IMG/VR virus record: IMGVR_UViG_3300011008_000041
Coordinates: 1-64,000 of that record
Source of the DNA: a virus
Lineage: Duplodnaviria > Caudoviricetes
DNA: 64,000 nucleotides
Direction: 5' to 3' (one strand)
The notes beneath the pieces are model-generated. The model was not told the origin of the DNA, searched no databases, and saw nothing but the letters and a program-made list of their open reading frames with translations. A program made the position numbers and the translations under genes. This document shows, piece by piece, positions 8,294 through 30,561 of this stretch (positions within the stretch are counted from its first letter, which is position 1; each line of letters starts with the position of its first letter).

Positions 8294-8808
8294 CGACCCT
8301 CCATCATGGAGGCGAGTTCCTCCGGGGAAAGCGTCTCGATGCCGAGCTCTTTGCAATCCTGCACAATGGCGTCTATCAGCCGTGACATCCGCTTGGTGGA
8401 GTAAGTGCTGGAGCCGTAATAGGCACGGATCACAACATGATCTCCATCCGGGGCATAATCGACCTGCTCAGTCGGCCAGCCTGTACCGAGTTCATGCCAT
8501 GCGTACTGGAATGTGCGGGCCTCGTCTGCGGTCAGGGTGAAATCCTTGAACTGACCAAACTTCCGTATGTACTCGATATACAGGTCGTTTTTGTCGCGGC
8601 CCAGAGCCGCCGCCAGCTTGTCCAACAGGACCCACATATAAGAATTGGCCTCGCGGCTTCTCTTGTCGCGCCACTTCTTGAAAGAGGCGTCAACATCACC
8701 GCTGTACAGAGCGTCGTATTTCTCCCGGAAGTCCTCGTCGAGCTCCACGGTCACGCGCCACTTTCCGTTTCTGCCGCGGACCATTTCACCGACAAAACGC
8801 CCTCTCAT
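8290..8808 (-). CDS. NinB/Orf-like recombination protein
   Basis: RSREANSYMWVLLDKLA..GSSTYSTKRMSRLIDAIVQDCKELGIET. Confidence 0.75.
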   Translation of the reverse strand: MRGRFVGEMVRGRNGKWRVTVELDEDFREKYDALYSGDVDASFKKWRDKRSREANSYMWVLLDKLAAALGRDKNDLYIEYIRKFGQFKDFTLTADEARTFQYAWHELGTGWPTEQVDYAPDGDHVVIRAYYGSSTYSTKRMSRLIDAIVQDCKELGIETLSPEELASMMEGR

Positions 8809-9569
8809 GAACCAAACGCTCCCTGAAACACTTCCTCGGACATCCGCCGGGCTTCGCAATCCATAATCTTCTTGAATGCGGTATCAACGTCAGCCTCATC
8901 CTCAACCGCTGGCTTCTGCGGGAGCGATTTGAGTGTATCGGACTTTGGTCTGTCAGCCTCCCACTTCTCTTTGTAGAGATCGAGCAAGCCCATACTCTGT
9001 AAGGACTGAACGAAATCGCTGATAAAGTCGGCAATGTCCCGGGTCTCCTGCGGTATGTACCGCTCGGTGTACAGATCCTCGCCGTCGCTGACGAGATAGA
9101 TAAACTCGTGTGCTTCGGGAATGAGATAGAAGTATGTCGGATGCTGCGGGCTGTTCAGATAGTCGCCGGCAAGATCAAGGTCTTTGAAACTCTTGGCCTT
9201 ATACTTCACATCGAAGATTGTGCCGGCCTTGAGTCCATCCAGAATTCCGTAGACAAGGAACGTCATACCGGCAACCCTGATCTCTCGTGACGCCCGGACT
9301 TGCACCTGAGCGCCTTTCAGGTACGTTGCAACGCTCTCCACGCCGTTTTTCCACTTGCCGGGATATTCCCGCTTGCCCGTTCCGGCCAAAGCGTACACAG
9401 CGTTTTCAAATGCGATGCCGTCCCGCATGGCTTGGTTGGGCTCCTCGTGTTCTCTGTTGAGGGTTTTGAGGAAAGAGGCTTTCGCCTCTTCCTCGCCGCC
9501 CTCATAGCAGTCGAACATGTATGCCCACGAGCCGAGGAGAGATTGCGTTACGAGATAACGCGCCATCAT
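8805..9569 (-). CDS. PD-(D/E)xK-like exonuclease (recombination)
   Basis: YGILDGLKAGTIFDVKYK and QHPTY motifs; adjacent to Sak4-like ATPase. Confidence 0.65.
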   Translation of the reverse strand: MMARYLVTQSLLGSWAYMFDCYEGGEEEAKASFLKTLNREHEEPNQAMRDGIAFENAVYALAGTGKREYPGKWKNGVESVATYLKGAQVQVRASREIRVAGMTFLVYGILDGLKAGTIFDVKYKAKSFKDLDLAGDYLNSPQHPTYFYLIPEAHEFIYLVSDGEDLYTERYIPQETRDIADFISDFVQSLQSMGLLDLYKEKWEADRPKSDTLKSLPQKPAVEDEADVDTAFKKIMDCEARRMSEEVFQGAFGS

Positions 9570-10510
9570 GTAACCTCCGCGTTGATGTAGCAGCCCGCCT
9601 CCTTGCTCCACTTGAAGCCGAGGGAGGCAACCTTTTTCTTGAGCATTTCCGACGCCTCTTTCTTTGAGGTCAGCGCGTGGTCCAGTTCAGGCAGCGCTTT
9701 CGCGGCAGCGTCGGCGCTTTCGAGATCGTGGATGTTCTCAACGATCTCGGTGACCTCGACCATGACGTGCTCGTACTGTTCGCGGAGGGGGGCAAACGCC
9801 TCGTTCTCTGCGGCGATATTCGCCTTGGCCTCATCAAACAGGCGGGTCAGAAAGTCGTTCTTATCATTCGGGCCAATGGCCGGGATGGGCCGTCTGCCGA
9901 CAATGCCGTGACAGCCTTTTGCAAAGAACTCCTGTTCGGGGGTGAAGCAGATAACGCGCTGATCACCGATCATCTGAACGTAGCCACCGAAGTCACAGGG
10001 CGTCCATACGGTATTGCGGACGCTGCCCTCACAGACAAGGCGCTGGATGGGATTGCCGTCTTTGTCTGCGCCCTCATTGGAATGGAACACATAGATGATG
10101 TTCTTGTTGAGGCGGGTCTTCACATCCTCGGTAAAGCGGTTCCATTCCGACTTGACGAAACCGAAGCCTTTGAGCCCGTTGAACTCGCCGCTCTTGGTCT
10201 TCGCTCCTTTCTCGGTCATGGCCCAGTCTTTGAGGAACGTCACAAAGCTGCCGCCCGTGTCGATCACCACCGTCTGGTAGTCCCGCATATCGGGCGAGTT
10301 GATGTCCTGCAGAACTTCCAGATAGGTGTTGCAGAACGCGGTATCCTTGCGGTGGGCGGCAGACACGCGGGAAATGCCGCGGTCGAAGTCCAGCAGGATC
10401 GGATCAGGGGCAGACAGTGCCAGCGTGGTCTTGCCGACGCCGGGCGAGCCGTAGATGATCATGGAGAACTTCTTATCGGAAAAGTTCATATTCTCAGGCT
10501 TTACGATCAT
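9566..10510 (-). CDS. Sak4-like/AAA_24 ATPase (phage recombinase)
   Basis: Walker A GSPGVGKTT, LLDFDRG, Walker B TVVIDT. Confidence 0.85.
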   Translation of the reverse strand: MIVKPENMNFSDKKFSMIIYGSPGVGKTTLALSAPDPILLDFDRGISRVSAAHRKDTAFCNTYLEVLQDINSPDMRDYQTVVIDTGGSFVTFLKDWAMTEKGAKTKSGEFNGLKGFGFVKSEWNRFTEDVKTRLNKNIIYVFHSNEGADKDGNPIQRLVCEGSVRNTVWTPCDFGGYVQMIGDQRVICFTPEQEFFAKGCHGIVGRRPIPAIGPNDKNDFLTRLFDEAKANIAAENEAFAPLREQYEHVMVEVTEIVENIHDLESADAAAKALPELDHALTSKKEASEMLKKKVASLGFKWSKEAGCYINAEVT

Positions 10511-11000: not shown

Positions 11001-13043
11001 TTAAAAGAGGATTTTCATAATTCGTTCTGTGGCTCCTTTGACCTTAACCACCAGCGTATTCCGCTTGGTGGAGCTGAAGCCAAGTCCGGAGAGCTGGTCG
11101 GGCACGGTCTGAACAGCCATCTTGCCGCCGAGCGCCTCGAATACCCGCTTGTGTTCAGCAAGCTCCTGTTTCAGAAACTCGTTATAAAAGCCGTTGGGCT
11201 GTTCGGGGTTGACGCAGTCTTTGAGCATGAAGAAGTAGTGGCGATGGCCGATGCCTGTCTGAGCGTCCCAGTAATTGGGGGAATACATTGCTACAGTCAC
11301 GGGGACAAAGTTGTTGGTTTTCACGCCCCACAGATCAACCGATGCTGTATCGGCGGGAAGTTTGGTAACGATAGTGAACGTTCCATCCGGTTTCAGCTGG
11401 ACAGCGGCAACATCGACGTTTTCGCCCTGGCGGAGTTCTTTGCGGTAGTCGAACCGGAAGATTTGTCCATCGAATTCGATTTCTGCCCGAAAACCATCAC
11501 GCCCACCGCGATTGGCATACTGGTGTACGAAGAAGTTGTAAACACCGGGATACATGCGGCGCTTATCGGGCCAGGTGATGTTTTCTACCGCAGGAACTCC
11601 ATCAATTGGGTGGGTAATGTCCACGTCGAGGTTGCCTCCGTCAGAAACCCGCTTATGACCGAAGAAGATATGCTCATCCATCGGCGTTATACAATGCGCA
11701 TCGAGGTCGTTCCGGCTGTATTCGCCTGTATCATTCCACTGAATGGAAAAGCGCAGAACGCCATCCACCCGGCCACCGGCCGATTTGACATTTTCCTTCA
11801 CGTCGCTATCGGTGATGTTTCCGGAATAGGCCCAGGAAAACGAGTTGTTCCACTTGAACATGCTAGGCGCGTCGGCGTTCACCGGGGCGATAAGGGACAC
11901 CATGTTGGGAGCATGGCGGTTCTCCACATACACCTCCATTTCGGTCACGCAAGGGAGCACATCGGCAATGAACTTATTCACCGGGATTTCCTCGGCGCGG
12001 TCGAACCGCTTAGGTGTGGTTTTCGCCTCAGAGAGCATTTCGTCGAACACGGAGCCGCCAATTCTCTTGGAAGCGTCGCGATTGGAAAACAGGATGTTGT
12101 TCACGGTGATATCATCCAGGGTTGCGAAGCGCCGAGGCAGAGAATCCATATAGCCCAGATCGGTGATTTTCTGCTTAGCCTCCTCCAGCATCCTCGCGGT
12201 AAAGATAGCTTTAGGCCGCTTGTAGTTTGCCGGGGCAACGATCTTCTCGTAGCGTGTCACCGCGGCATTCAGATCCATACCCGAGGACACATCCGTCAGC
12301 AGGACGCCGATAGAATGATTGCGGATGCGCCCGATCACAGAACCAACATTGGGCGCCTCTTTCCACGCAAAGAGCGATTTCTTCTCTTCGGACAGCATGT
12401 CATAGACCTCTTTGCGGGATTTGAACGCCGCAAGAGGCTTTTTCCACTCCTCGCCCTTGTAGAGCGTATTGGATACGATCAGTTCCAGGATGGTGTCGAG
12501 GGCGACCATGCTGATTTCGTCCAGCGAGCGCTTGAATACGTTGCGAGTGTCCCGGCGCTGGCCACGCGCGGTATCGATAGTGTCTCGCGTAGTGTTCGTG
12601 AGATAGCCCGGAAGAAGCAGGTGGAAATGATCCCATGCCCTAATCTTTCCGTTGTCGTTCTCGTGAGAAACGTCAGTGCCTATATAGCGTTCTCTTGCGA
12701 TGTAGTAGCCCGTGATGTTGCATCCAGTCACATAGGCCGCAAGCGCATCCATGACAGGCTGGTAGGTGGTGCTCCCGGTGTCGAATTCAAAGATGCTGTG
12801 CATCGTCAGATCGTCATCGATGTACACAACGCCGCCAATTTCCTTGATGAAGTGGCGGCAGCAGGAACAGTCGTGTTCCCGGCGCTCCCGGAAGATTTCG
12901 TTTGTACCGGCAGGGAAACTGTCAAGGTACAGGTTCCAAAGGGCATCTTTATCGACATCCGTTTCAAACAACAGTCGTTCGGGATCCTCGACGGACCGTT
13001 TGAAATTTGCCAAGAGCTTGAGTTTCATTTCTTTGAAGCTCAT
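11001..13043 (-). CDS. 680-aa conserved phage protein with HDCSCC motif and YfaP/DUF2135-like domain
   Basis: HDCSCCRHFI; VLRFSIQW..NDLDAHC..GNLDVDI..AVENITW. Confidence 0.8.
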   Translation of the reverse strand: MSFKEMKLKLLANFKRSVEDPERLLFETDVDKDALWNLYLDSFPAGTNEIFRERREHDCSCCRHFIKEIGGVVYIDDDLTMHSIFEFDTGSTTYQPVMDALAAYVTGCNITGYYIARERYIGTDVSHENDNGKIRAWDHFHLLLPGYLTNTTRDTIDTARGQRRDTRNVFKRSLDEISMVALDTILELIVSNTLYKGEEWKKPLAAFKSRKEVYDMLSEEKKSLFAWKEAPNVGSVIGRIRNHSIGVLLTDVSSGMDLNAAVTRYEKIVAPANYKRPKAIFTARMLEEAKQKITDLGYMDSLPRRFATLDDITVNNILFSNRDASKRIGGSVFDEMLSEAKTTPKRFDRAEEIPVNKFIADVLPCVTEMEVYVENRHAPNMVSLIAPVNADAPSMFKWNNSFSWAYSGNITDSDVKENVKSAGGRVDGVLRFSIQWNDTGEYSRNDLDAHCITPMDEHIFFGHKRVSDGGNLDVDITHPIDGVPAVENITWPDKRRMYPGVYNFFVHQYANRGGRDGFRAEIEFDGQIFRFDYRKELRQGENVDVAAVQLKPDGTFTIVTKLPADTASVDLWGVKTNNFVPVTVAMYSPNYWDAQTGIGHRHYFFMLKDCVNPEQPNGFYNEFLKQELAEHKRVFEALGGKMAVQTVPDQLSGLGFSSTKRNTLVVKVKGATERIMKILF

Positions 13044-13634: not shown

Positions 13635-14193
13635 ACTTCGCCTCCATCTTCTCGATGAATGCATCGACCTGAGCGGTGACCCAGTCCTGGACGGTCTCAT
13701 AGCCCTCGGCCTCGATGTACCTCTGTAACCGCAGGAACTTGTCATCCGGGAGTCGCCCCGCAACACGGGCTGTATACCTATGTCTGCCGCTCCGGTGCTT
13801 TTTCGTCGGCGTGGAAGCGGTCTCATGAGGCGGCGCGGGTTCATCTTCAATGCGGGTCACTCCCGATCCTCCGCAGGGCGGGAGGGGTGGCGCCGGCTCT
13901 TCGGCTGGCACGTTGGCAATGTTGTCCCGAAGAATGGCAAAACCGCCAGGATGAAGTACACAGCCGTACAGGTTCGGCCGGGTGCATTTCGATACGACGG
14001 TTTTATCCAACTTCGGATAGTGTGATCGCAGAAGCCTCGTCGCGTCCTTGGGCGTCAGAGAAGCCGCGTTGATCGCGCCTCTCAGGTCATACCGTTTGAC
14101 AGCGGCATCGAACTCTGCTAAGATGTCTGTGGGTTTACTAGCCTTGGGGTCGTTGTGTGCCAGCACAGCGGCCTCGTTTTCTTTTGTGATCAT
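13621..14193 (-). CDS. hypothetical (possible DNA-binding) protein
   Basis: Coupled ORF; C-terminal RHH-like segment. Confidence 0.6.
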   Translation of the reverse strand: MITKENEAAVLAHNDPKASKPTDILAEFDAAVKRYDLRGAINAASLTPKDATRLLRSHYPKLDKTVVSKCTRPNLYGCVLHPGGFAILRDNIANVPAEEPAPPLPPCGGSGVTRIEDEPAPPHETASTPTKKHRSGRHRYTARVAGRLPDDKFLRLQRYIEAEGYETVQDWVTAQVDAFIEKMEAKYGAD

Positions 14194-14639
14194 GCGATAT
14201 TCTCCTGACTGATGTTGTCCATAGCCTCGAACACCGCGGCCAGCTCCGAGAGCGCCCGGTATTTCGCCTTGAATGCCTCAAGCTCTTCCAGCGCGTTCGT
14301 CAGAAGTGCCTTGCGCAGTTCCTCGTTGCTCATGGCCGCATAAAGGGTCGTGTAGCCCTTTTCCGCATGAACGAACTGTCGGACCGGCGTATCGTCCGCG
14401 GCCTCCTGGACAGTAATGTTTCGGATGATGTACTGTGCCTGCACAGTGCGAAATCGCTCCGCAGCGACACGATCATCCCACTCGAACAGAGCGTGAAGCG
14501 GAGCGTCCTCCGCACGGCTGGCATCAACCACCGCCTGCGGTGTCAGTGTCCCGTCCTTGCTCTGGTCCCTGATGCGGTTCAGCTCGGCGACCGCCGTTTG
14601 AACCGGTACCTTCATCGGGATCTTCCATTGATAGGTCAT
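14190..14639 (-). CDS. conserved protein immediately downstream of the GGY-NN array (putative accessory factor)
   Basis: Strong RBS (agaaaggagg); LTPQAVVDASRAEDAPLHALFEWDDRVAAERFRTVQAQYIIRNI motif. Confidence 0.8.
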   Translation of the reverse strand: MTYQWKIPMKVPVQTAVAELNRIRDQSKDGTLTPQAVVDASRAEDAPLHALFEWDDRVAAERFRTVQAQYIIRNITVQEAADDTPVRQFVHAEKGYTTLYAAMSNEELRKALLTNALEELEAFKAKYRALSELAAVFEAMDNISQENIA

Positions 14640-14678: not shown

Positions 14679-15819
14679 GCGCCTAAACTAGCCGTGCCTC
14701 GGCGACCCAAACCACGCCTGCCCATCCGCTCCGGACCGCACCACAACGCATCATTCCAAACCACGCCTGCCAAACCGAACCCTTCCGATCCCATCCGCAC
14801 CGGACCTAACCTTGCCTGCCATACCACGTCCACCCTCGGCTCTACCGACCTCGCCATCCATGCCTGCCAGCCTTGCCATTCCGTACCGCGCCGAACCTTG
14901 CGTCAACGCGCCATGCCGAGCCGCGCCTGCCATAACGTTCCCTTCCGGGCCCAACTCTGCCTTGACAAGCCATGCCAGCCAGTCCACACCTGAGCATGCC
15001 GTTTCCCACCGGAACTGACCTCGCCTTGCCCGCCATGCCTCACAGATCCAAAGCGAACACTACCGAAGCCAACCATGCCCGCCGCGCGTAGCCACCTCGT
15101 ACCGTAACTAGCCTCAGCAAACCGGGCCTGCCATGCCCAGCCATGTCCCGCCTTGACGTTCCGAACCTGAACGGACCATGACTGCCAAACCGCCCGTGCC
15201 GTACCGGGCGCAGCCTACCCGGACCATGCCAGCCGTACCGTACCAAAGCCCACCACAACAAGCCGTGCCATGTCACACCGGAACTGCCTTGCCTGGACGT
15301 GCCTGACCTCGCGTCGACTTTCCACGCCTAGCCTAGCCTGGCAAACCGTACCGAAGCTCATCCAACCGGAACCAACCGAGCCCCGCCTAAACCCGCCTGT
15401 CATATATGTACCGAGCCCAGCCCCGCAAAGCCGTTCCACAACTGGCCCTTCCTTGCCTGCCGCACCGAGCCTTTCCAGACCGTGCCTAGCCCCAGCGAAG
15501 CATGCCCCGCCTGCCGCACCGAGCCGAACCTTGCCAAACCCCGCAAGACCCAGCCTAAACAGAGCGAACCGTGCCTTGCCTGCCTTGCCGGACCTAGCCG
15601 GGACAAACCGGGACTTGACACACCTAGCCTGCCGGGCCATTCCACGCTCTGCCACGACGCACCGCTCAGGACCACGCCATTACGTGACTTGCCTTGCCTG
15701 CCAGTCCATGCCATAACGAGACGCGCCAAGCCCCGCCATCCTTACCCTGACCGCCGTACCGAACCAATCCAGAACGGGCCCAGCCAAACCGGAACATGAC
15801 TTACCCAGCCGTGCCTGTC
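14679..15819 (-). ncRNA. array of about 21 putative guide RNAs built from GGY-NN pentamers (VIPR-like)
   Basis: Strict 5-nt periodicity (plus strand NN+RCC-like triplet), broken every 8-13 pentamers by a 4-nt unit (tgcc/agcc/cgcc; GGCAGGC on minus). Starts 7 nt after the RAMP stop; no credible ORF. Confidence 0.85.
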
Positions 15820-15825
15820 GCGGAA

Positions 15826-16494
15826 TTACTCGATATGAAACATTCCTGACTGCCCGGATTTCTCGACACGCCACTCACCGATGCCGCAGACCATCCCGGC
15901 AGCGTTGATCATGTTCACGATATTCTCCAGGGAATACTGGCCGTTCTTGTTGTATTTCAGGATCACGTCTGTGCTCCAATTGCGGAACTCGCCGCGGTAA
16001 CGGAGATCGGCGGTGCCAAGGCCGACTTTGACCATATCCTCGCGCATGATCGGGGGGTCGCTAATGATCTCCAGCATGTCGAGGCCGCTATCCCCGAGTT
16101 GGCCGACGCCGTACAGGAAGAACGCACCCTGCAGGGAGACCTTGTCCTTCGACCACCCCATACGATAGGCGGCGCTTATCGCAGCCTTTTTGAGTCCGAC
16201 CACAGGGAAACCAAACCGGGCACCCTTGGCGATGGCCTCCTCAAACGCCTCCTCGGTCATTTCCGTGGGCTTCTCGGTGAGCCAGTACATGGAGTTGATG
16301 AAATCCTCGACGGGGTTCTTTACGGGCTTCTTCTTGCCCTTCGCGAGGCCCATCTGCGCCTCCAGCATCTGCCGCTTGGCCTTCTCGCTCCAGCAGTGGA
16401 CGATCAGGGGCGTGTCACCGACGATATGAAGGGTGACCTGGGCCATGTCCAGAGGGCGAACTTCAACGATCTCATCATTCTTCTTGGTTGCCAT
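15826..16494 (-). CDS. stand-alone Cas7/RAMP-like protein (Vipr-like), 222 aa
   Basis: RBS+ATG at 16494; VTLHIVGDTPLIVH strand, FGFPVVGLKKAAISAA helix (cf. IPGSSLKG), C-terminal Gly loop GMVCGIGEWRVEKSGQSGMF. No other cas genes in the window. Confidence 0.8.
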   Translation of the reverse strand: MATKKNDEIVEVRPLDMAQVTLHIVGDTPLIVHCWSEKAKRQMLEAQMGLAKGKKKPVKNPVEDFINSMYWLTEKPTEMTEEAFEEAIAKGARFGFPVVGLKKAAISAAYRMGWSKDKVSLQGAFFLYGVGQLGDSGLDMLEIISDPPIMREDMVKVGLGTADLRYRGEFRNWSTDVILKYNKNGQYSLENIVNMINAAGMVCGIGEWRVEKSGQSGMFHIE

Positions 16495-17479: not shown

Positions 17480-17707
17480 TTAGGCGCATTTATGCGACTT
17501 TTGAGACAAAAAAATAGCGATTGCTTCATCCGTGGTCAGATCCAGAACTTCGCACATCTTATGTATGTCCCTTATCTGTAGGCGACCGGAATTCAGGCGT
17601 CTCCTTAAAGTTGCGCGATCAATGCCCAATTCTTCTGCCAAGACCTCTTGAGTGATTCCACATTCAACGATTTTTGCCTGCAATTTCTTTATATCGATTT
17701 GATACAT
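17480..17707 (-). CDS. Cro-like HTH regulator
   Basis: ITQEVLAEELGIDRATLRRRL HTH; divergent from the repressor. Confidence 0.85.
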   Translation of the reverse strand: MYQIDIKKLQAKIVECGITQEVLAEELGIDRATLRRRLNSGRLQIRDIHKMCEVLDLTTDEAIAIFLSQKSHKCA

Positions 17708-17723
17708 CGGTTCCTCCTTTCCA

Positions 17724-17840
17724 GTAGCATTTTTGCTACTTCTTGGTTAAACATTACACCACAGCGAAACAAAAGTCAATACAAATGTCGCAATTTTGCA
17801 ATATCAAAATGTTGCAATTTTGCCCCACGCCTGTTATACT
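17724..17840. promoter_or_regulatory. lysis/lysogeny switch: divergent promoters and three GCA(A/T)TTTTGC operators
   Basis: Minus TTGACT-17-TAATGT (17779-17751); plus TTGCAA-17-TATACT (17812-17840); palindromic boxes at 17727, 17790, 17814. Confidence 0.7.
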
Positions 17841-17870
17841 ATATACAACATGCACGGGGTGGTGTTACTT

Positions 17871-18206
17871 ATGACTACAGGCGAACGGATCAGAGAGCGA
17901 AGAAAGGCTATAGGTATGTCGGCAGATACTCTTGCCGAGAAGATCGGTCTGTCAAGGTCTACCATTTTCCGTTACGAGAACGGTTTCATTGAGAAAATGC
18001 CAATAGAAAATCTGGTGCCAATAGCGCGAGCCCTCCGAACGACTGTTGGCTATTTAATGGGATGGGAAGAAGAAGCACCCATCACCGGCGCCGATGATGA
18101 GTGCGAAAAAGAAGCTATGCAATATTTTGAGGCTCTTTCAGAGACTCGCAAGGCCGAGGCTCTGAATTACCTTCGATATCTTGCAGTGAACGAAGATAGA
18201 AAATGA
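17871..18206 (+). CDS. CI-like XRE repressor (no obvious S24 peptidase domain)
   Basis: MTTGERIRERRKAIGMSADTLAEKIGLSRSTIFRYENG. Confidence 0.9.
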   Translation: MTTGERIRERRKAIGMSADTLAEKIGLSRSTIFRYENGFIEKMPIENLVPIARALRTTVGYLMGWEEEAPITGADDECEKEAMQYFEALSETRKAEALNYLRYLAVNEDRK

Positions 18207-19799: not shown

Positions 19800-21395
19800 G
19801 TGAAGGTGCAGCCACCGTCAACTGAACAGGAGAAGGGCGTTATTTACGCCCGCTATTCCTCTGCCGGTCAGCGAGATGAGAGCATCGAGGGACAGCTCCG
19901 TGACTGCCATGCATTCGCGGAGCGGTTCGGCATCCGCATCGTAGGCGAGTACTGTGACCGCGCTCTGACTGGAACGTCGGATAAGCGCCCGGAGTTCCAG
20001 CGCATGATAAAGGACAGCGCCAAGGGACAGTTCTCCGTCGTGATATGTTGGAAGAACGACCGCTTCGCCCGCTCGCGATACGACAGTGCGATATACAAGG
20101 CCCGGCTCAAGCAGAACGGCGTCAAAGTGCTGTACGCGAAAGAGAGTATACCGGACGGCCCGGAGGGGATCATCCTCGAATCCGTCATGGAGGGCTTTGC
20201 GGAATACTACTCAGCCAACCTATCCCAGAACGTGAAGCGGGGCAACTATGACAGCGCTCTCCAGCGGCAGACGCTTGGCCAAACTGTGTATGGCCTTCGA
20301 AAAGGACCTGACAAGAGGTTTGAGTTGGACCCGGCCACCGCCCCCGTTGTGCGACGTATCTTTCAAGAATATGCCGATGGCAGGCCCATGAAAGAGATAT
20401 ATGCCGATCTGAACCGTGAGGGATATCGTACAAGCAGAGGGAACCTCTTCAACAAGAATTCCCTGCGGCGCATTCTTCAGAACAAGAAATACATGGGCGT
20501 ATACGAGTACGCAGATATTTATGATGAGAACGGTATACCGCCGATCGTTGACAAAGACTTGTTTGAGAGGGTGCAGAAAATGCTTGACCTTCATCATGAG
20601 GCTCCTGCGCTAAAGAAGATAGACGGTGGTTTTTTGCTCACAGCCAAACTGTTCTGTGGCGAGTGCGGTAAGCCGATGACCGGCGACGGCGGCACCGGCA
20701 AGAGCGGAAAGGTATATGCCTATTACACCTGCAAAGGCAGACGCGAGCATAAATGCAAAAAAGAACGCGCAGCGAAAGAGTGGATCGAAGATATCGTTGT
20801 CCAGGCGCTCGCCAACATCGTCAACGACGATGATATGATACAGGACTTTGCAGACCGATTCATGGAATGGCAAGAGCGGCAGAACAATGACGACGTGCTG
20901 GATGGTCTGGAAAACCAGCTGCGCCAGGTTGAGACTGCTATCAAGAACAATCTCAACCTGATAAACACCGGCTTCATCACCGACAGTGTCAAAAGTAATC
21001 TGATGGAGTTGGAAAGCCAGAAGGCCGCGATCGAGGTCGGCATAGCAAAGGAAAAGTTGGAAGGTAGCGCCCCCCAAATTCCGCGAAAGTCCATCGTTTG
21101 GTTCATGAAACGCTTCCGAACAAAGGACACTTCTGATATCAGGTGGAGGATTCACATCATCGACACCTTCCTCAAGGCGGCATATCTCTACGACGACGGA
21201 CGCCTGATACTCCATTTGAATTTCAGCGGTGACAAGAGCGCGGTATCGCTGAAAATCGCGGAGGCAGCGATTGCAGAGGGCGAGGCTCTGTGTTCAGATT
21301 TCGCGCCGCCCGGCGTACCAAATGGCGCGAATTTGAACACCCGAGTTTACTTCCATAACGGAGTACTCGCGGCTCTTGTTTTCGCGCAAAATTGA
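19800..21395 (+). CDS. large serine recombinase (integrase)
   Basis: VIYARYSS catalytic motif, recombinase domain, CGECGKPM..YYTC..C Zn ribbon, coiled coil. Confidence 0.95.
   Translation: MKVQPPSTEQEKGVIYARYSSAGQRDESIEGQLRDCHAFAERFGIRIVGEYCDRALTGTSDKRPEFQRMIKDSAKGQFSVVICWKNDRFARSRYDSAIYKARLKQNGVKVLYAKESIPDGPEGIILESVMEGFAEYYSANLSQNVKRGNYDSALQRQTLGQTVYGLRKGPDKRFELDPATAPVVRRIFQEYADGRPMKEIYADLNREGYRTSRGNLFNKNSLRRILQNKKYMGVYEYADIYDENGIPPIVDKDLFERVQKMLDLHHEAPALKKIDGGFLLTAKLFCGECGKPMTGDGGTGKSGKVYAYYTCKGRREHKCKKERAAKEWIEDIVVQALANIVNDDDMIQDFADRFMEWQERQNNDDVLDGLENQLRQVETAIKNNLNLINTGFITDSVKSNLMELESQKAAIEVGIAKEKLEGSAPQIPRKSIVWFMKRFRTKDTSDIRWRIHIIDTFLKAAYLYDDGRLILHLNFSGDKSAVSLKIAEAAIAEGEALCSDFAPPGVPNGANLNTRVYFHNGVLAALVFAQN
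21292..21338. other. candidate attP inside the 3' end of the integrase
   Basis: Imperfect inverted arms gttcagatttcgcgcc / ggcgcgaatttgaac around gcccggcgtaccaaat. Confidence 0.5.
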
Positions 21396-26246: not shown

Positions 26247-27746
26247 TCAGAACCCAAGCTTGGCGAACTCGCCGCGCGTCTGATCTCCGACGATGCCGTC
26301 CACCGTGATGCCACGAGCCGCCTGGAAGCGCTTGACCGCGTCACTGGTGTCTGTGCCGTACTCGCCGTCGATCCCGTAGGACCCCACGGAATAGCCGAGG
26401 GCCTCCAGTGCGTACTGGATAGCCTTCACGCCGTCATGCCGCTTGCCGTAGCGAACAAGGCCCGTGGTGGCGCTGGCACGGCCATAAGGATAGACCACCA
26501 CAGGGACGACAATAGCTTCGACCTGAGCAACCGTCAGGCCATTGAGACCAGCGTTCAGCATAATCGCCGGATAGTCCTTGTACGCCAGATCCATGTCGCA
26601 GTTGCCGGCGATGCCAGCGACCTTACCCGTGCTGCCATACTGCCAGATACCGCAGCTCTTGGACGGTGCGGACACGCCCCAATGAGCGAGCCAGAGGTCG
26701 AACTGCGTCAGCTTGGAGAAGCCGCGGTTCAGGTAGTCCCAGTTGGTGTAGTTTACGGCGTAATAGCCGCGCTGCTCCACACGGGCGAGGAAAGTGTCAG
26801 CAAGGGCCACGATGTCGGGCGAATACCCAGCGGCCTTGGACTTGACATCAGAGTCATACTCGTAGTCAAAAGCCAGAGGGAACGTGACGGGCAGTCCAAG
26901 GCTCTCCACAGCGTCGCAGAGGTAGTCTGCCTCAGCACGAGCCATGTCCTTGGTATAAGCATAGGAGAACCAGTAGAAGCCCACATGGACCCCAGCCTTG
27001 ATAGCTCCTAGCGCATTGGCCTTGAACTGCTGGTCGATATGGCCCACACCATAGCCGGCGCGGATCATAGCGAACGCCACGCCGTCGGCCTTGGCCTTCT
27101 GCCAGTCGATAGTACCCTGCCAAGTGGACACGTCCACGCCCTTCGCGGGCAAAGCCAGCACCGCGTCGGCAAGGTCCTGAGTCAGCGACTCCGTGGCAGG
27201 CTCCGCCTCCGCAGTCTCCTCGTCCTCCCACATGGGGCGCCCGTAATCGGCGATGTAAGGATCCCAGCGGGAATAGGTGCAAACCTGAACGCGGTTGCCT
27301 TTGTTGCCCTCGATGATCGTTACGGTGGCGTCATCGACAGCTACCACGCCGCCAGTATGGACGATGCTGCCACCCTGCTGGAAGAAAGCCTGATCGCCCA
27401 CCTCCGGCGTGGTATACAGCCGCCCGTGGTCACGGTAGTAGCCACGGCTCCACGGGCAACCAGCGCCGTATAGAGTGCCGATCTGGAACTGCATCGTCTG
27501 AGCCTTATCGGCGTCGCCGCCGCAGGCCTGAAGCAGGCACCAGTCATAGAACATATCGCACCATTCAAAGCCCTGCTTGGACGCCTGGTAGTAACCAGCC
27601 TCGGCCAGATCTCTGGCGTACTTGGTGTAATTGTTGGAGCCGGCGTTCGCGGCCTTGTCGTCTAGGTATGCGTTGGAGGCCTTCTCGTAGTAGCCGACCT
27701 CACCCTGCATAACCGCGACCATCTTCTTCGCAGTCACCTTACTCAT
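26247..27746 (-). CDS. endolysin: CHAP + GH25 muramidase + peptidoglycan-binding domain
   Basis: EWCDMF..HTGGV..IIEGN (CHAP); GVDVSTWQG..FDYEY (GH25); VKAIQYAL..DGEYG..AVKRFQ..DGIVG (PG_binding_1). Confidence 0.9.
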   Translation of the reverse strand: MSKVTAKKMVAVMQGEVGYYEKASNAYLDDKAANAGSNNYTKYARDLAEAGYYQASKQGFEWCDMFYDWCLLQACGGDADKAQTMQFQIGTLYGAGCPWSRGYYRDHGRLYTTPEVGDQAFFQQGGSIVHTGGVVAVDDATVTIIEGNKGNRVQVCTYSRWDPYIADYGRPMWEDEETAEAEPATESLTQDLADAVLALPAKGVDVSTWQGTIDWQKAKADGVAFAMIRAGYGVGHIDQQFKANALGAIKAGVHVGFYWFSYAYTKDMARAEADYLCDAVESLGLPVTFPLAFDYEYDSDVKSKAAGYSPDIVALADTFLARVEQRGYYAVNYTNWDYLNRGFSKLTQFDLWLAHWGVSAPSKSCGIWQYGSTGKVAGIAGNCDMDLAYKDYPAIMLNAGLNGLTVAQVEAIVVPVVVYPYGRASATTGLVRYGKRHDGVKAIQYALEALGYSVGSYGIDGEYGTDTSDAVKRFQAARGITVDGIVGDQTRGEFAKLGF

Positions 27747-27939
27747 GATCGTCAACCTCCGGCAGTCCCGCCACGCTCGTCAGCAGAGACAGGACGCCCG
27801 CCAGCACCGCGGCGCTCGCCACGTTGATCCAGTTCACGTCCCCAAGCAGGGCAGACGTGCCGATCATGGCCACAGCGGTCTGGGCGACGGTCTTGATAGC
27901 GCGGACACCCGCAGCCTTGATCCAAGTGGTTTTCTTCAT
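27739..27939 (-). CDS. holin (r1t family)
   Basis: WIKAAGVRAIKTVAQTAVAMI..SLLTSVAGLPEV. Confidence 0.9.
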   Translation of the reverse strand: MKKTTWIKAAGVRAIKTVAQTAVAMIGTSALLGDVNWINVASAAVLAGVLSLLTSVAGLPEVDDHE

Positions 27940-28989: not shown

Positions 28990-30060
28990 CTATGCGGCTT
29001 TCGGCATGGCCATACTGTGTTCCCTCACAACATCTTTCAGCACCTTCGCACTTATTGGGTCGAAATACTTCACCCGGATATTGTAAGAGTTGCAATGCTT
29101 GAGCTGCCCCGCACGGGATAGGAGCCCTGACGCAGAGTGGAAGGGTATCTTCCTGCCCTCGTCGATCATGCGCTGTACGCGCCGGCACTGCTGGGCATAG
29201 CGAAGGAAGTTCCTGCGGCGGAGTGTTGTATGGGAATGGTAGAACCGGAATCCGACAAAATCAATGCCGCGGGCATCGACCGGGAACACCTGCCAGTTTT
29301 CTTTCAGGCGCAGGCCGAGGCCAGAGAGGAACGCGGCTATGGACTTCCTGGCCTTGTGGAGCAGCTTTTTGTTCGGCCCCATCAAAACCATATCGTCCAT
29401 GTTCCGAGTGTAGTATTTCACCCCTGGGAGCGTGCAGATATGACGATCCAGCGGTTCCAGATAGAAGTTCGCCAGCCATTGGTTGATATAGAAGCCAATG
29501 GCGAGCCCGCCGTCTGAATTGGAGGTCATGATATCGTACACGGTTTTCAGGAATAGCTTATCCTTGATCTTCCGGGCCAGCGCCCAGATCAGACGCCGTG
29601 GCGAGATTGAAGGATAGAAGTGCTTGATGTCCATCTTCAAGCAGTATTTTGTGCCCTTATGGTCATTCCGCAGGGCACGGCGTACATAGTTCATGGCGCA
29701 TTTGTTCCCGCGTCCGGGGATGGATGCGCAGGACCAGCGGTACATACCACGCATGAGGATGTCTTCCATGGCCATTACGCAAAGTTGGTGCATAAGACCG
29801 TCAGGATAAAACGGTACGATCTGTATCGTTCTCTCCTTCATGCAAGTACGATCAAATATCACCTTTGATCGAGGCGTGGTTGGGATATAGGAGCGTGTCA
29901 TCAGCATTTCATAGGCTTGATCGACATAGCTTTCCTCGTCGGCCAGCACGATCTTTACATCCCAGCGATTACGCTTTCCTCGTGTCCCTTCGCGGATAGC
30001 GGCGCGGATCATGTCCTTGTCACACATCCGCTCATAGATGTGGCCCACTCTATGGGGCAT
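28990..30060 (-). CDS. DGR reverse transcriptase (356 aa)
   Basis: RBS aggagg before ATG 30060; CLKMDIKHFYPSI, GLAIGFYINQWLAN, YYTRNMDD, GIDFVGF. Confidence 0.95.
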   Translation of the reverse strand: MPHRVGHIYERMCDKDMIRAAIREGTRGKRNRWDVKIVLADEESYVDQAYEMLMTRSYIPTTPRSKVIFDRTCMKERTIQIVPFYPDGLMHQLCVMAMEDILMRGMYRWSCASIPGRGNKCAMNYVRRALRNDHKGTKYCLKMDIKHFYPSISPRRLIWALARKIKDKLFLKTVYDIMTSNSDGGLAIGFYINQWLANFYLEPLDRHICTLPGVKYYTRNMDDMVLMGPNKKLLHKARKSIAAFLSGLGLRLKENWQVFPVDARGIDFVGFRFYHSHTTLRRRNFLRYAQQCRRVQRMIDEGRKIPFHSASGLLSRAGQLKHCNSYNIRVKYFDPISAKVLKDVVREHSMAMPKAA

Positions 30061-30180
30061 AGGGCATTCCTCCTTGTTTGCCTCAAGGCCGTTCGAGAGT
30101 GAACCTACTAAGCCCTGTCCTGACGGCAAGATTTTTACCGAGCGGTATGGACTTATCTGCGCACGTGTGCGTGAGAAAAC

Positions 30181-30317
30181 AAGGTGTCGGGAGCCGAGGT
30201 TCGCGTTGGTGTTCGAGGCCGCGTTGTTGGCGTTGAAGTAGAAGAAGCCATAGTTATCGTTGCTGTTATAGTTGCCGCCAACGTTCAGCGCTTGGTCGCC
30301 GGTGTTCGAGTTGACGT
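30181..30317 (-). repeat. DGR template repeat (TR), 137 bp
   Basis: Aligns without gaps to 30574-30710; AAC-rich; 15 of 16 mismatches are at TR adenines. Confidence 0.95.
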
Positions 30318-30533
30318 GAACACCCAGCAGAACGGGCTCGCATGGCGCAAATAATCCCGCAGGGGATGATAGCACACATTCTGCTGGTACGCTTGAAAAT
30401 GGAAAAGGTTTACACACAGGTGTCGGTGTATTACGCCAAGCGTAATTTTTGAATTTTATAAAACGTGGGGCTCCGCCCCACACCCCGGTTAAGGGGTGCA
30501 TACGAGGACGGAGCCACAGCGTTTTAACGAACC

Positions 30534-30555
30534 TCCGGGGGTTGCGACCCCCGGA
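30534..30555 (-). other. DGR target-recognition hairpin downstream of VR/IMH
   Basis: 9-bp stem tccgggggt-(4 nt)-acccccgga a few nt after the target stop. Confidence 0.8.
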
Positions 30556-30561
30556 CCCCCG

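What the first reader, a model, noticed from the sequence alone, without database searches (positions are those of the whole stretch)
14679..15819. Array grammar: about 21 units of 8-13 GGY-NN pentamers delimited by a 4-nt phase slip
On plus the text parses as NN+(acc/gcc/tcc/aac/gac...) pentamers, e.g. gtacc gaacc aatcc agaac gggcc cagcc aaacc ggaac atgac ttacc cagcc gtgcc. At about 20 positions the register is broken by one 4-mer (tgcc/agcc/cgcc/tgtc), i.e. GGC-N-GGC on the transcribed strand (14719, 14768, 14817, 14865, 14928, 14977, 15031, 15080, 15129, 15183, 15231, 15285, 15339, 15398, 15458, 15512, 15581, 15630, 15699, 15752, 15816). The NN strings differ in every unit, unlike a VNTR. 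Here the constant part is interleaved with the information, unlike CRISPR repeat-spacer arrays. The slip could be the processing or filament-boundary signal.
Basis: seen in the sequence. Interest (0 to 1): 0.9.

Follow-up and report, generated by a model that had tools for sequence, protein, structure and literature searches.

The report
Phage VIPR guide-RNA array
This 1.1-kb stretch is a string of about 21 guide RNAs belonging to a phage VIPR system, a CRISPR-like silencer first described in 2026 and apparently aimed at rival phages; it is a real and large example, but of a kind already published.

Summary
Window 14679-15819, read on the minus strand, is a strict 5-nt array of GGY-NN pentamers (lag-5 z = 14; the signal occurs nowhere else in the window). 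It is cut into about 21 units, mostly 5k+4 nt long, by a 4-mer slip, usually GGCA followed by GGC.

It is the vrRNA array of a VIPR system (bioRxiv 10.64898/2026.04.26.720920). It lies between a Cas7-like vipr gene (15826-16494) and a co-conserved accessory gene (14190-14639) in the early operon of an uncultured 72-kb temperate phage. That paper describes the slip as "staggered arrays" (its fig. S18).

Read with the published code (NN pairs, every third target base skipped), four guides hit foreign genes far above chance:
- family-A DNA polymerase motif A: eight perfect 22/22 matches
- the N-terminus of an Enc34-type SSB in the same rival replication module
- SNF2 helicase motif V: 25/26
- the 3' end of rival vipr alleles: 23/24, against 19/24 for the phage's own vipr

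Matches span whole units. Close relatives gain, lose or swap whole units at the junctions.

RNA ends could not be tested, and 17 guides have no target yet. This scan has already noted VIPR loci in more than 100 other genomes. Verdict: new member of a known kind.

The parts
15826..16494 (-). vipr: 222-aa Cas7/RAMP-like protein, predicted to polymerise on the guides with one protomer per pentamer
   Evidence: phmmer to PDB 36pp_D 'SUSP1 Vipr protein' gives E 3e-5, and the A1 profile gives 1e-7. The RNA-contact residues line up: SUSP1 H17, R138, C173, D177, W178, R179 correspond to H33, R167, C203, E207, W208, R209, of which all but W208 are invariant in A1 and W208 is nearly so. The AF2 model (pLDDT 79, pTM 0.75) matches Csm3, type VII Cas7, Cas7-11 and Cmr4 in Foldseek (E down to 2.5e-5, prob 1.0). 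Homologues are 215-222 aa, so the true start is the ATG at 16494.
14679..15819 (-). Staggered vrRNA array: about 21 guides of 7-13 GGY-NN pentamers, separated by a 4-mer slip (mostly GGCA, then GGC) with no tail, hairpin or ribozyme between them
   Evidence: No Rfam family covers it. No minus-strand promoter-like or terminator-like site lies inside it.
14190..14639 (-). vap: 149-aa Vipr-accessory protein, with a GGAGG ribosome-binding site directly after the last guide
   Evidence: tblastn finds a homologue next to vipr in 123 of 137 Vipr loci. It belongs to phrog_15946. The AF2 model is confident (pLDDT 92). The N-terminal domain only weakly resembles winged-helix nucleic-acid binders, and a C-terminal helical hairpin follows (Z at most 6.2); this is inconclusive.
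15756..15815 (-). Guide u01 (12 pentamers): predicted anti-vipr guide
   Evidence: Under the NNx rule it matches the last codons of vipr in other phages: 23/24 in L003, L105 and L119, 22/24 in L008, 21/24 in L001.
15833..15867 (+). Site in the phage's own vipr that guide u01 matches only 19/24
   Evidence: Two whole dinucleotides are broken. One break is a Ser AGC to TCC codon-box switch, the other an Asn to Ser change relative to L003.
15634..15698 (-). Guide u04 (13 pentamers): predicted target is SNF2 helicase motif V
   Evidence: It matches 25/26 in a 71,205-bp IMG/VR phage (L138, L141, L143). Seven of the 8 positions not used in the search also match. The target ORF carries SNF2-rel_dom plus Helicase_C. 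This guide is absent from the relatives L001 and L003.
15235..15284 (-). Guide u10 (10 pentamers): predicted target is the N-terminus of an Enc34-type ssDNA-binding protein (PF10991)
   Evidence: A 9-dinucleotide sub-pattern hit 46 IMG/VR contigs, where five other guides gave 0, 0, 0, 1 and 1. All hits fall on the VNPTKVITG codons a few codons from the gene's start, scoring 18-19/20.
14873..14927 (-). Guide u18 (11 pentamers): predicted target is family-A DNA polymerase motif A (DFSAIE)
   Evidence: It hits 30 of the 46 loci that were fetched through u10 alone at 18/22 or better. Eight are perfect 22/22 even though the skipped wobble bases vary. DNA_pol_A is confirmed by Pfam.
17480..18206 (.). 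Context: divergent cro-like (17480-17707, minus) and cI-like (17796-18206, plus) repressor genes that head the early leftward operon containing vipr, the array and vap
   Evidence: PHROG transcriptional repressor and regulator families.

Best explanation
The stretch is the guide-RNA (vrRNA) array of a VIPR system (Viral Interference Programmable Repeat) carried by an uncultured 72-kb temperate phage of gut Clostridia.

Inferred from gene order: vipr, the array and vap are transcribed leftward as one early operon.

By analogy with the SUSP1 cryo-EM structures: Vipr protomers bind one GGY each, flip it out and present the NN dinucleotides. Each guide then pairs with double-stranded DNA that reads NN-x-NN-x, skipping every third base. 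This forms a silencing filament on the target gene.

Inferred here: the 4-nt step (GGCA then GGC) puts the next GG one base out of the 5-nt register. One filament, and so one guide, ends there and the next begins. No tail, hairpin or ribozyme is needed.

Shown computationally here: units behave as independent cassettes, and at least four of them spell conserved codons of genes this phage lacks or carries in a diverged form. Three lie in a rival replication module (Enc34-type SSB N-terminus, PolA motif A, SNF2 motif V). One lies in rival vipr alleles.

The array is therefore most likely a multi-target weapon against competing phages.
For: 1. Protein. Vipr homology to SUSP1 Vipr, with all GGY-contact residues conserved, and a Cas7-type fold.

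2. Grammar. G1 93%, G2 76%, Y3 86%, and NN near maximal entropy.

3. Linkage. 43 of 50 genome loci with a Vipr homologue carry a same-strand period-5 G array next to it. vap co-occurs with vipr in 123 of 137 loci.

4. Family-wide junction. In 110 arrays with 508 junctions, the 4-mer is GGCA in 84%, and unit lengths are 44, 49, 54, 59, 64, 69 or 74 nt.

5. Code.
- u18 gives eight perfect 22/22 matches in loci that were selected only by u10. Shuffled guides give none.
- u10 gives 46 hits, against 0-1 for five other guides.
- u04 matches 25/26.
- u01 matches 23/24.
- In all four, the skipped base is the codon wobble position.

6. Targets are foreign. The 72-kb genome has no PolA, Enc34-type SSB, DUF2800, D5 primase or SNF2 gene. 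No guide matches the phage's own genome above shuffled-guide level except u01 at 19/24, with u22 marginally above at 15/18.

7. Cassette behaviour. Relatives with 98%-identical Vipr differ by whole units at junctions.

8. Selection. Between orthologous units, substitutions fall on Y3 (9.7%) and G2 (6.2%). N4 (2.4%), N5 (3.4%) and G1 (0.7%) are kept.

9. Literature. The grammar, the skip rule, phage-versus-phage targets, guides against other VIPR systems and 'staggered arrays' are all described in 10.64898/2026.04.26.720920 and 10.64898/2026.04.26.720927.
Against: - No RNA data: expression, processing sites and Vipr binding are all untested for this locus.
- The authors did not confirm staggered arrays by sRNA-seq either.
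- 17 of 21 guides have no convincing target in the collections I could search.
- The host, and whether the predicted rival phages share it, are unknown.
- Some units are irregular: four spacings are 3 mod 5, and three guides have only 7 pentamers. They may be decayed.
- The vap fold gave no clear match.
- All four predicted targets here lie antisense to the coding strand, so these hits alone do not exclude mRNA pairing.
Confidence: 0.9

Rival explanations
1. It is a VIPR array, but the 4-nt slip is not itself the boundary signal. Guides would be cut out by a sequence-specific nuclease that recognises GGCAGGC, or they would overlap and be used from alternative registers of an uncut transcript.
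For: The junction is strongly sequence-conserved (GGCA in 84% of 508 junctions, with the next pentamer biased to GGC-R). That is more than a pure register shift would need. [quoted passage not shown]
Against: The minimal operon encodes no nuclease. Variant 4-mers (GGCT, GGCG, GACA, GCCA) occupy the same positions. The 5k+4 length rule holds across phyla.
Confidence: 0.25
2. Guide u01 is an autoregulator of the phage's own vipr, through partial pairing at 19/24, rather than a weapon against rival vipr alleles.
For: Its best match in the phage's own genome is exactly the homologous site in vipr and exceeds all shuffled-guide controls (19 against a maximum of 18). It is the guide nearest the gene.
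Against: Rival alleles match much better (23/24, 22/24). The own site is broken at two whole dinucleotides, one through a synonymous Ser codon-box switch. L001's version of the guide matches the window's vipr 22/24 but its own only 18/24; I counted this by hand from the parses and sites printed. The first guides of four other arrays hit other loci's vipr at 90% or more and their own at 65-77%. The published threshold for a hit is 80% or more.
Confidence: 0.12
3. The guides act on mRNA, as an antisense RNP, rather than on DNA.
For: All four predicted targets of this array are complementary to the coding strand. SUSP1 Vipr can pair its guide with ssRNA in vitro.
Against: In the same clade, the first guides of L090, L009, L011 and L095 match the sense orientation of vipr genes. 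The published systems hit both strands and silence transcription. Complete filaments needed a DNA third strand. Four of four in one orientation has p of about 0.125.
Confidence: 0.08
4. It is a translated low-complexity or pentapeptide-like ORF.
For: GC-rich sequence gives open runs of up to 182 codons.
Against: Every frame on both strands has 3-14 stop codons. There is no period-3 signal (lag 3 = 0.19, lag 5 = 0.46). The 4-nt slips and the unit indels of 49, 59 or 64 nt between 98%-identical relatives would break any frame. Gene callers leave the gap empty in all relatives.
Confidence: 0.01
5. It is a DNA-level or structural element with no guide function, such as a two-tetrad G-quadruplex tract, a replication origin or iteron field, a Rho-loading C-rich tract on the other strand, or a protein-sponge RNA.
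For: (GGNNN)n could form two-tetrad quadruplexes. The plus strand is 43% C and 21% G.
Against: None of these ideas predicts NN strings that spell foreign genes at 22/22, 25/26 and 23/24 with a skipped wobble base. None predicts NN being more conserved than Y3 between orthologous units. None predicts the strict linkage and co-orientation with a Cas7-like gene.
Confidence: 0.02

Closest known systems
VIPR 'staggered' vrRNA arrays (fig. S18 of bioRxiv 10.64898/2026.04.26.720920)
   Same: A lone Vipr RAMP gene plus a vap gene in a phage. Guides are GGY-NN pentamers that follow one another directly, with the end of one marking the start of the next at a 1-nt offset.
   Different: Only the legend is available to me, so neither the VIPR type nor whether this clade is the one figured can be stated. 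The paper says this architecture was not confirmed by sRNA-seq. At 1.15 kb and about 21 guides, this array is the longest of the 110 arrays of the clade I compared (median 302 nt).
Type II VIPR of Escherichia phage SUSP1 and the Pseudomonas fulva prophage (PDB 36pp; 10.64898/2026.04.26.720920, .720927, 10.64898/2026.10.15.759431)
   Same: A homologous Vipr with the same GGY-contact residues, and 9-16-repeat guides. The 1-nt-skip code falls on codon wobble positions. Targets lie in competing mobile elements, including other VIPR systems. It is a two-gene operon.
   Different: SUSP1 vrRNAs are separate transcripts of about 100 nt, each ending in a roughly 40-nt conserved tail with a pseudoknot that caps the filament. 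Here there is no tail at all, and the guides form one uninterrupted tract between vipr and vap. Sequence similarity to SUSP1 Vipr is confined to the thumb and G-loop region (E 1e-7 with a profile). The vap is a different, unassigned family.
Class 1 CRISPR-Cas backbone filaments (Cas7 family: Csm3, Cmr4, type VII Cas7, Cas7-11)
   Same: The protein fold is the closest solved match by Foldseek. A protein filament assembles on a guide RNA with a thumb that flips bases at a fixed period.
   Different: There are no CRISPR repeats or spacers, no Cas6, Cas5, large subunit or adaptation genes. The period is 5 with three bases flipped, not 6 with one. The guide information is non-contiguous. Variation between relatives is by whole-unit exchange, and no acquisition machinery is visible.

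Membership tests
VIPR system | Vipr protein: a stand-alone minimal RAMP (RRM core, thumb, G-loop) homologous to described Viprs | tested here: met
   Profile E 1.1e-7 to PDB 36pp_D SUSP1 Vipr. H17, R138, C173, D177, W178 and R179 equivalents are conserved. The AF2 model matches Cas7-family RAMPs with Foldseek prob 1.0.
VIPR system | vrRNA made of tandem pentamers with conserved GGY alternating with hypervariable NN, 9-16 repeats per guide, on the vipr strand | tested here: met
   G1 93%, G2 76%, Y3 86%, NN entropy 1.94-1.96 bits, units of 7-13 pentamers on the same strand as vipr. Three units are short, at 7 pentamers.
VIPR system | Minimal locus with a vipr-accessory (vap) gene, no cas genes and no CRISPR array, in a virus or provirus | tested here: met
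   The layout is vipr, array, vap, with vap co-conserved in 123 of 137 loci. The record is a 72-kb virus with cI/cro-like regulators, a serine recombinase, an endolysin and a DGR. No Rfam CRISPR family is found.
VIPR system | Guides specify targets through NN pairing with a one-nucleotide skip, typically on codon wobble positions | tested here: met
   u18 22/22 eight times, u04 25/26, u01 23/24, u10 19/20 in 38 loci. The skipped base is the wobble position in all four. Shuffled guides and five other guides gave 0-1 hits. This is computational only, and 17 guides remain unassigned.
VIPR system | vrRNAs are expressed as discrete small RNAs that co-purify with Vipr, and the RNP represses targeted promoters or genes | not testable with these tools
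No expression data were available for this uncultured phage.
VIPR type II (SUSP1 / P. fulva clade) | Each vrRNA ends in an invariant 3' tail of about 40 nt with a conserved fold (a pseudoknot in SUSP1) | tested here: not met
   Consecutive guides are separated only by a 4-mer, with no conserved non-pentamer segment between units. The locus therefore works like type II but is not a type II member.
VIPR staggered-array architecture | Adjacent vrRNAs abut with a 1-nt offset, so the end of one guide marks the start of the next | tested here: met
   Fifteen of 20 spacings are 4 mod 5. Family-wide unit lengths are 5k+4 and the junction is GGCA then GGC. Target complementarity ends at the junctions. 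Which of types I and III-VII this belongs to is unknown, because the supplement is not held.
CRISPR-Cas | Direct repeats of 20-40 nt alternating with contiguous spacers, plus cas operon genes including adaptation genes | tested here: not met
   No such repeats are found. The only Cas-like gene is the lone Cas7-like vipr. PADLOC has no match for vipr or vap.

The most novel reading that the evidence does not exclude
The array may be a self-punctuating polycistronic guide tract. A single missing base per unit, with no tail, ribozyme, hairpin or Cas6-like enzyme, would be enough to end one Vipr filament and start the next, so about 21 guides mature from one mRNA lying between two ORFs.

In addition, the first guide of such arrays may act as an allele-specific anti-vipr guide, with the owner's gene recoded to escape (for example by the Ser AGC to TCC switch). 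Related phages would then disarm each other's VIPR systems in a heteroimmunity-like pattern.
Probability: 0.35. Interest if true: 0.55.

Novelty: new member of a known kind. Interest (0 to 1): 0.3.

Why it matters
The finding shows that reading raw sequence alone can recover the grammar of a new class of RNA-guided system.

For VIPR biology, this locus is a convenient natural test case for the tail-less 'staggered' architecture, which the discovery paper did not verify by RNA sequencing. It has about 21 guides in one tract. Four have clear predicted targets: three in one rival replication module and one in rival vipr alleles. There is also a built-in comparison between the phage's own vipr site (19/24) and rival sites (23/24) for measuring the mismatch tolerance of the gapped code.

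The pattern of substitutions between orthologous guides is direct evolutionary evidence that the NN letters carry the function: NN is kept while Y3 and G2 drift.

None of this changes the published picture; it extends it to uncultured gut Clostridia phages.

Tried and rejected
**Database searches that found nothing**
- Rfam found no family on the array.
- Tandem Repeats Finder saw only fragments, because the units are not sequence repeats.
- Pfam and PADLOC have no model for vipr or vap. PHROGs gives only families of unknown function.
- blastn against GenBank phages found nothing related.

**Ideas considered before the PDB hit and then dropped**
- A TRAP-like ring wrapping 11 triplets, two-tetrad G-quadruplex tracts, and a Rho rut site on the C-rich strand. 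None predicts the decoded targets.
- The minimum-free-energy fold of the whole array has no shuffle control at that length, so I did not use it.

**Target hunts without a convincing result**
- u06: one IMG/VR hit, 22/26, at chance level.
- u09, u13 and u16: no IMG/VR hit.
- u09: nothing within 2 mismatches in 401 genomes of one Oscillospirales family, and a single 19/22 hit in five host-candidate genomes.
- u17: one exact 18/18 hit, but out of codon phase in a zinc-ribbon ORF, so I treated it as chance.
- Summed over all guides, hits at 85% or more in the 2-Mb local set did not exceed shuffled-guide controls. Only u01 and u18 stood out there.

**Other steps that led nowhere**
- Weak clusters for u23 and others in the PolA module were not above expectation.
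- vap fold: Foldseek found nothing at E of 0.001 or better. VIA-align gave Z of at most 6.2, below that tool's noise level. Winged-helix-like rows recur but prove nothing.
- VIPR type (I-VII) could not be assigned, because the supplement is not held and the text gives no vap definitions.

Full report
**1. The observation**

Window 14679-15819 lies between two minus-strand genes and has no ORF spanning it. Every frame on both strands carries 3-14 stop codons.

Base identity peaks at lag 5 and its multiples, and shifts to lags 49, 54, 59, 64 and 69 at longer range. The lag-5 value is 0.464 against 0.294 +/- 0.012 in dinucleotide-preserving shuffles, z = 14. Strong period-5 power occurs nowhere else in the 64 kb.

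On the minus strand the text parses into pentamers with G1 93%, G2 76%, Y3 86%. Positions 4 and 5 are near maximal entropy at 1.96 and 1.94 bits.

Thirteen read GGCA, three GGCG, two GGCT, two GACA and one GCCA, and 17 of the 21 are followed by GGC. Fifteen of the 20 spacings are 4 mod 5.

**2. Context**

The record is a single 72,096-bp virus contig. The array sits in the early leftward operon of a temperate phage:
- cI-like gene (17796-18206, plus strand) and cro-like gene (17480-17707, minus strand)
- small ORFs
- a 222-aa gene (15826-16494)
- the array, starting a few bases after that gene's stop codon
- a 149-aa gene (14190-14639), whose GGAGG ribosome-binding site directly follows the last unit

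No minus-strand promoter-like or terminator-like site lies inside the array, so one transcript is the simplest reading. This is an inference.

**3. Identification**

The 222-aa protein has no Pfam or PADLOC match. It does hit PDB 36pp 'SUSP1 Vipr protein' (E 3e-5, or 1.1e-7 with a profile). That hit led to three 2026 preprints on VIPR systems.

These papers describe:
- a lone Cas7-like RAMP (Vipr), usually with an accessory gene (vap), mostly in phages
- guide vrRNAs of 9-16 pentamers with conserved GGY and hypervariable NN
- one Vipr protomer per repeat, which flips out GGY and presents NN
- target double-stranded DNA read as NN-x, skipping every third base, usually the codon wobble position
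- transcriptional silencing of competing mobile elements, including other VIPR systems

The SUSP1 residues that hold G1, G2 and Y3 are H17, R138, C173, D177, W178 and R179. They align with H33, R167, C203, E207, W208 and R209 here, all invariant or nearly invariant in 25 homologues. An AlphaFold2 model (pLDDT 79, pTM 0.75) finds Csm3, type VII Cas7, Cas7-11 and Cmr4 as top solved folds.

The family is large: 4,603 90%-identity clusters at E of 0.001 or better.

**4. Linkage and family-wide grammar**

Of 50 bacterial or MAG loci with a Vipr homologue, 43 carry a same-strand period-5 G array beside the gene. The downstream 149-aa gene has a homologue next to vipr in 123 of 137 loci, so it is the vap of this clade.

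Two layouts exist. The order is vipr, array, vap in Clostridia and gut phages. It is vipr, vap, array in Proteobacteria, Actinobacteria and others.

In 110 distinct arrays with 508 junctions, the 4-mer is GGCA in 84% and GGCT in 8%. Unit lengths are almost all 5k+4: 44, 49, 54, 59, 64, 69 or 74 nt. The paper calls this architecture 'staggered arrays', with vrRNAs at '1 nt overlapping positions', and notes that, unlike two other architectures, it was not confirmed by sRNA-seq.

The window's array, at 1,150 nt, is the longest of the 110; the median is 302 nt.

**5. Are the units guides?**

I decoded each unit's NN string with the published rule and scanned fetched loci and IMG/VR.

- **u18 (14873-14927)** reads, antisense, as the motif-A peptide of family-A DNA polymerases. 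It first hit three prophages at 19-20/22.
- **u10 (15235-15284).** A 9-dinucleotide sub-pattern gave 46 IMG/VR contigs. All fall on the VNPTKVITG codons a few codons from the start of an Enc34-type SSB gene (PF10991). Equivalent sub-patterns from five other guides gave 0, 0, 0, 1 and 1 hits.
- **u18 again.** In those 46 loci, chosen only through u10, u18 hits 30 at 18/22 or better. Eight are perfect 22/22 although the skipped bases differ between loci. Shuffled guides gave none. The two sites lie about 2 kb apart in a DUF2800, SSB, PolA, D5-primase, SNF2 module.
- **u04 (15634-15698)** matches SNF2 helicase motif V at 25/26 in an unrelated 71-kb phage. Seven of the 8 positions not used in the search also match.
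- **u01 (15756-15815)** matches the last codons of vipr in other phages at 23/24 (L003, L105, L119), 22/24 (L008) and 21/24 (L001). It matches the window's own vipr only 19/24 (15833-15867). The own site is broken at two whole dinucleotides, one by a Ser AGC to TCC switch.

In all four cases the skipped base is the wobble position. Complementarity runs from the first pentamer after a junction to the last before the next, and does not extend further.

The phage itself has none of the targeted replication genes. No other guide matches its own genome above shuffled-guide level, although u22 is marginal at 15/18 against a shuffled maximum of 14.

**6. Evolutionary behaviour**

Metagenomic relatives whose Vipr is 98% identical (L001-L005) share most units but differ by whole units at the junctions:
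- the first unit is replaced in L003
- u03, u04, u22 and u23 are private to the window
- L001 has three extra units

Between orthologous units, substitutions concentrate at Y3 (9.7%) and G2 (6.2%). N4 (2.4%), N5 (3.4%) and G1 (0.7%) are kept. So the NN letters vary freely between guides but are conserved within a guide lineage, as expected if they carry the specificity.

In four other arrays, the first guide matches another locus's vipr at 90% or more and its own at 65-77%, in the sense orientation. Anti-vipr first guides therefore recur, and both target strands are used in the clade.

**7. Mechanism**

Shown by computation here: the grammar, the linkage, the cassette behaviour, the decoded targets, and the low match to the phage's own genome.

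Taken from the SUSP1 and P. fulva structures: one protomer per pentamer. G1 and G2 are held by one protomer and Y3 by the next. NN pairs with the target, with one target base flipped out.

Inferred: neighbouring protomers share each GGY at a fixed 5-nt step, so a 4-nt step cannot be bridged. A filament should end at GGCA and a new one should start at the next GGC. This would replace the pseudoknot tail that caps type II guides.

Unknown: whether cleavage occurs, by what enzyme, and whether the constant GGCA(G) acts as a handle.

**8. What is missing**

- No RNA evidence.
- 17 guides have no convincing target.
- The host is not identified. The nearest Vipr homologues, at about 67% identity, are in Acutalibacteraceae and Oscillospiraceae MAGs.
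- The vap fold is inconclusive.
- The VIPR type cannot be assigned from the text I could read.

**9. Novelty**

The system, its code, its phage-versus-phage role, guides against other VIPRs and the staggered layout are all in print. A later preprint recovers 99 VIPR-like array clusters from sequence alone.

This scan has itself noted VIPR-like loci in at least 107 other genomes. First-stage notes on this same genome already proposed the u01, PolA and SSB decodings. I reached these decodings independently before reading those notes, and verified them against databases.

This is a new and unusually large member of a known kind.

Noticed in passing
window 28990-36987 (minus strand): A diversity-generating retroelement. 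The reverse-transcriptase ORF is 28990-30501 (RVT_1), and an RT-18 RNA (Rfam RF03021, 72.9 bits) lies at 30070-30147. A 137-nt template repeat at 30181-30317 is 88% identical to a variable repeat at 30574-30710, at the 3' end of a 2141-aa ORF (30562-36987). Fifteen of the 16 mismatches sit at template adenines.
   Followed up: partly
L090, L009, L011, L095 (first guide of each array) against the vipr genes of L069, L060, L127: The first guide of four other arrays matches another locus's vipr gene at 90-92% under the NNx rule, but its own vipr at only 65-77%. These matches are in the sense orientation and at a different site from u01. Anti-vipr first guides may therefore be common in this clade.
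   Followed up: partly
L006-L137 (Vipr loci): The same vipr/vap pair occurs in two gene orders. The order is vipr, array, vap in Clostridia and gut-phage loci, and vipr, vap, array in Alphaproteobacteria, Actinobacteria, Planctomycetes and others. Both use the GGCA junction.
   Followed up: partly
window 14679-15819 against L001:6586-7775 and L003:7944-8917: Between orthologous guides, Y3 (9.7%) and G2 (6.2%) change more often than the 'variable' N4 and N5 (2.4% and 3.4%). G1 almost never changes (0.7%).
   Followed up: yes
window 15398-15410 (minus-strand text ATATAT followed by GACA, then GGC): One junction is preceded by an A/T hexamer that keeps the 5-nt phase (spacing 60, which is 0 mod 5). 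The 4-mer is GACA here, but GGCA in L003 and L001. This may be a point-mutated junction or an internal signal.
   Followed up: no
window 11001-13043 (minus strand): A 680-aa protein matches phrog_1735 end to end (E 2e-261). The 680-aa gene at the same place in relative L003 carries Pfam DUF8224, although the Pfam scan run here found nothing for the window's copy. It sits three genes downstream of vap in the window and in L003, and is absent from L001. Its function is unknown.
   Followed up: no
window 19800-21395 (+), 26247-27755 (-): A large serine recombinase (Resolvase, Recombinase and Zn_ribbon_recom domains) and an endolysin with CHAP, GH25 and PG_binding_1 domains. Both are ordinary temperate-phage genes of Gram-positive hosts.
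   Followed up: no
window 9160-9185 (+): Guide u22 matches the phage's own genome 15/18, slightly above the shuffled-guide maximum of 14. The site lies inside the minus-strand ORF 8805-9611. This is probably chance.
   Followed up: no
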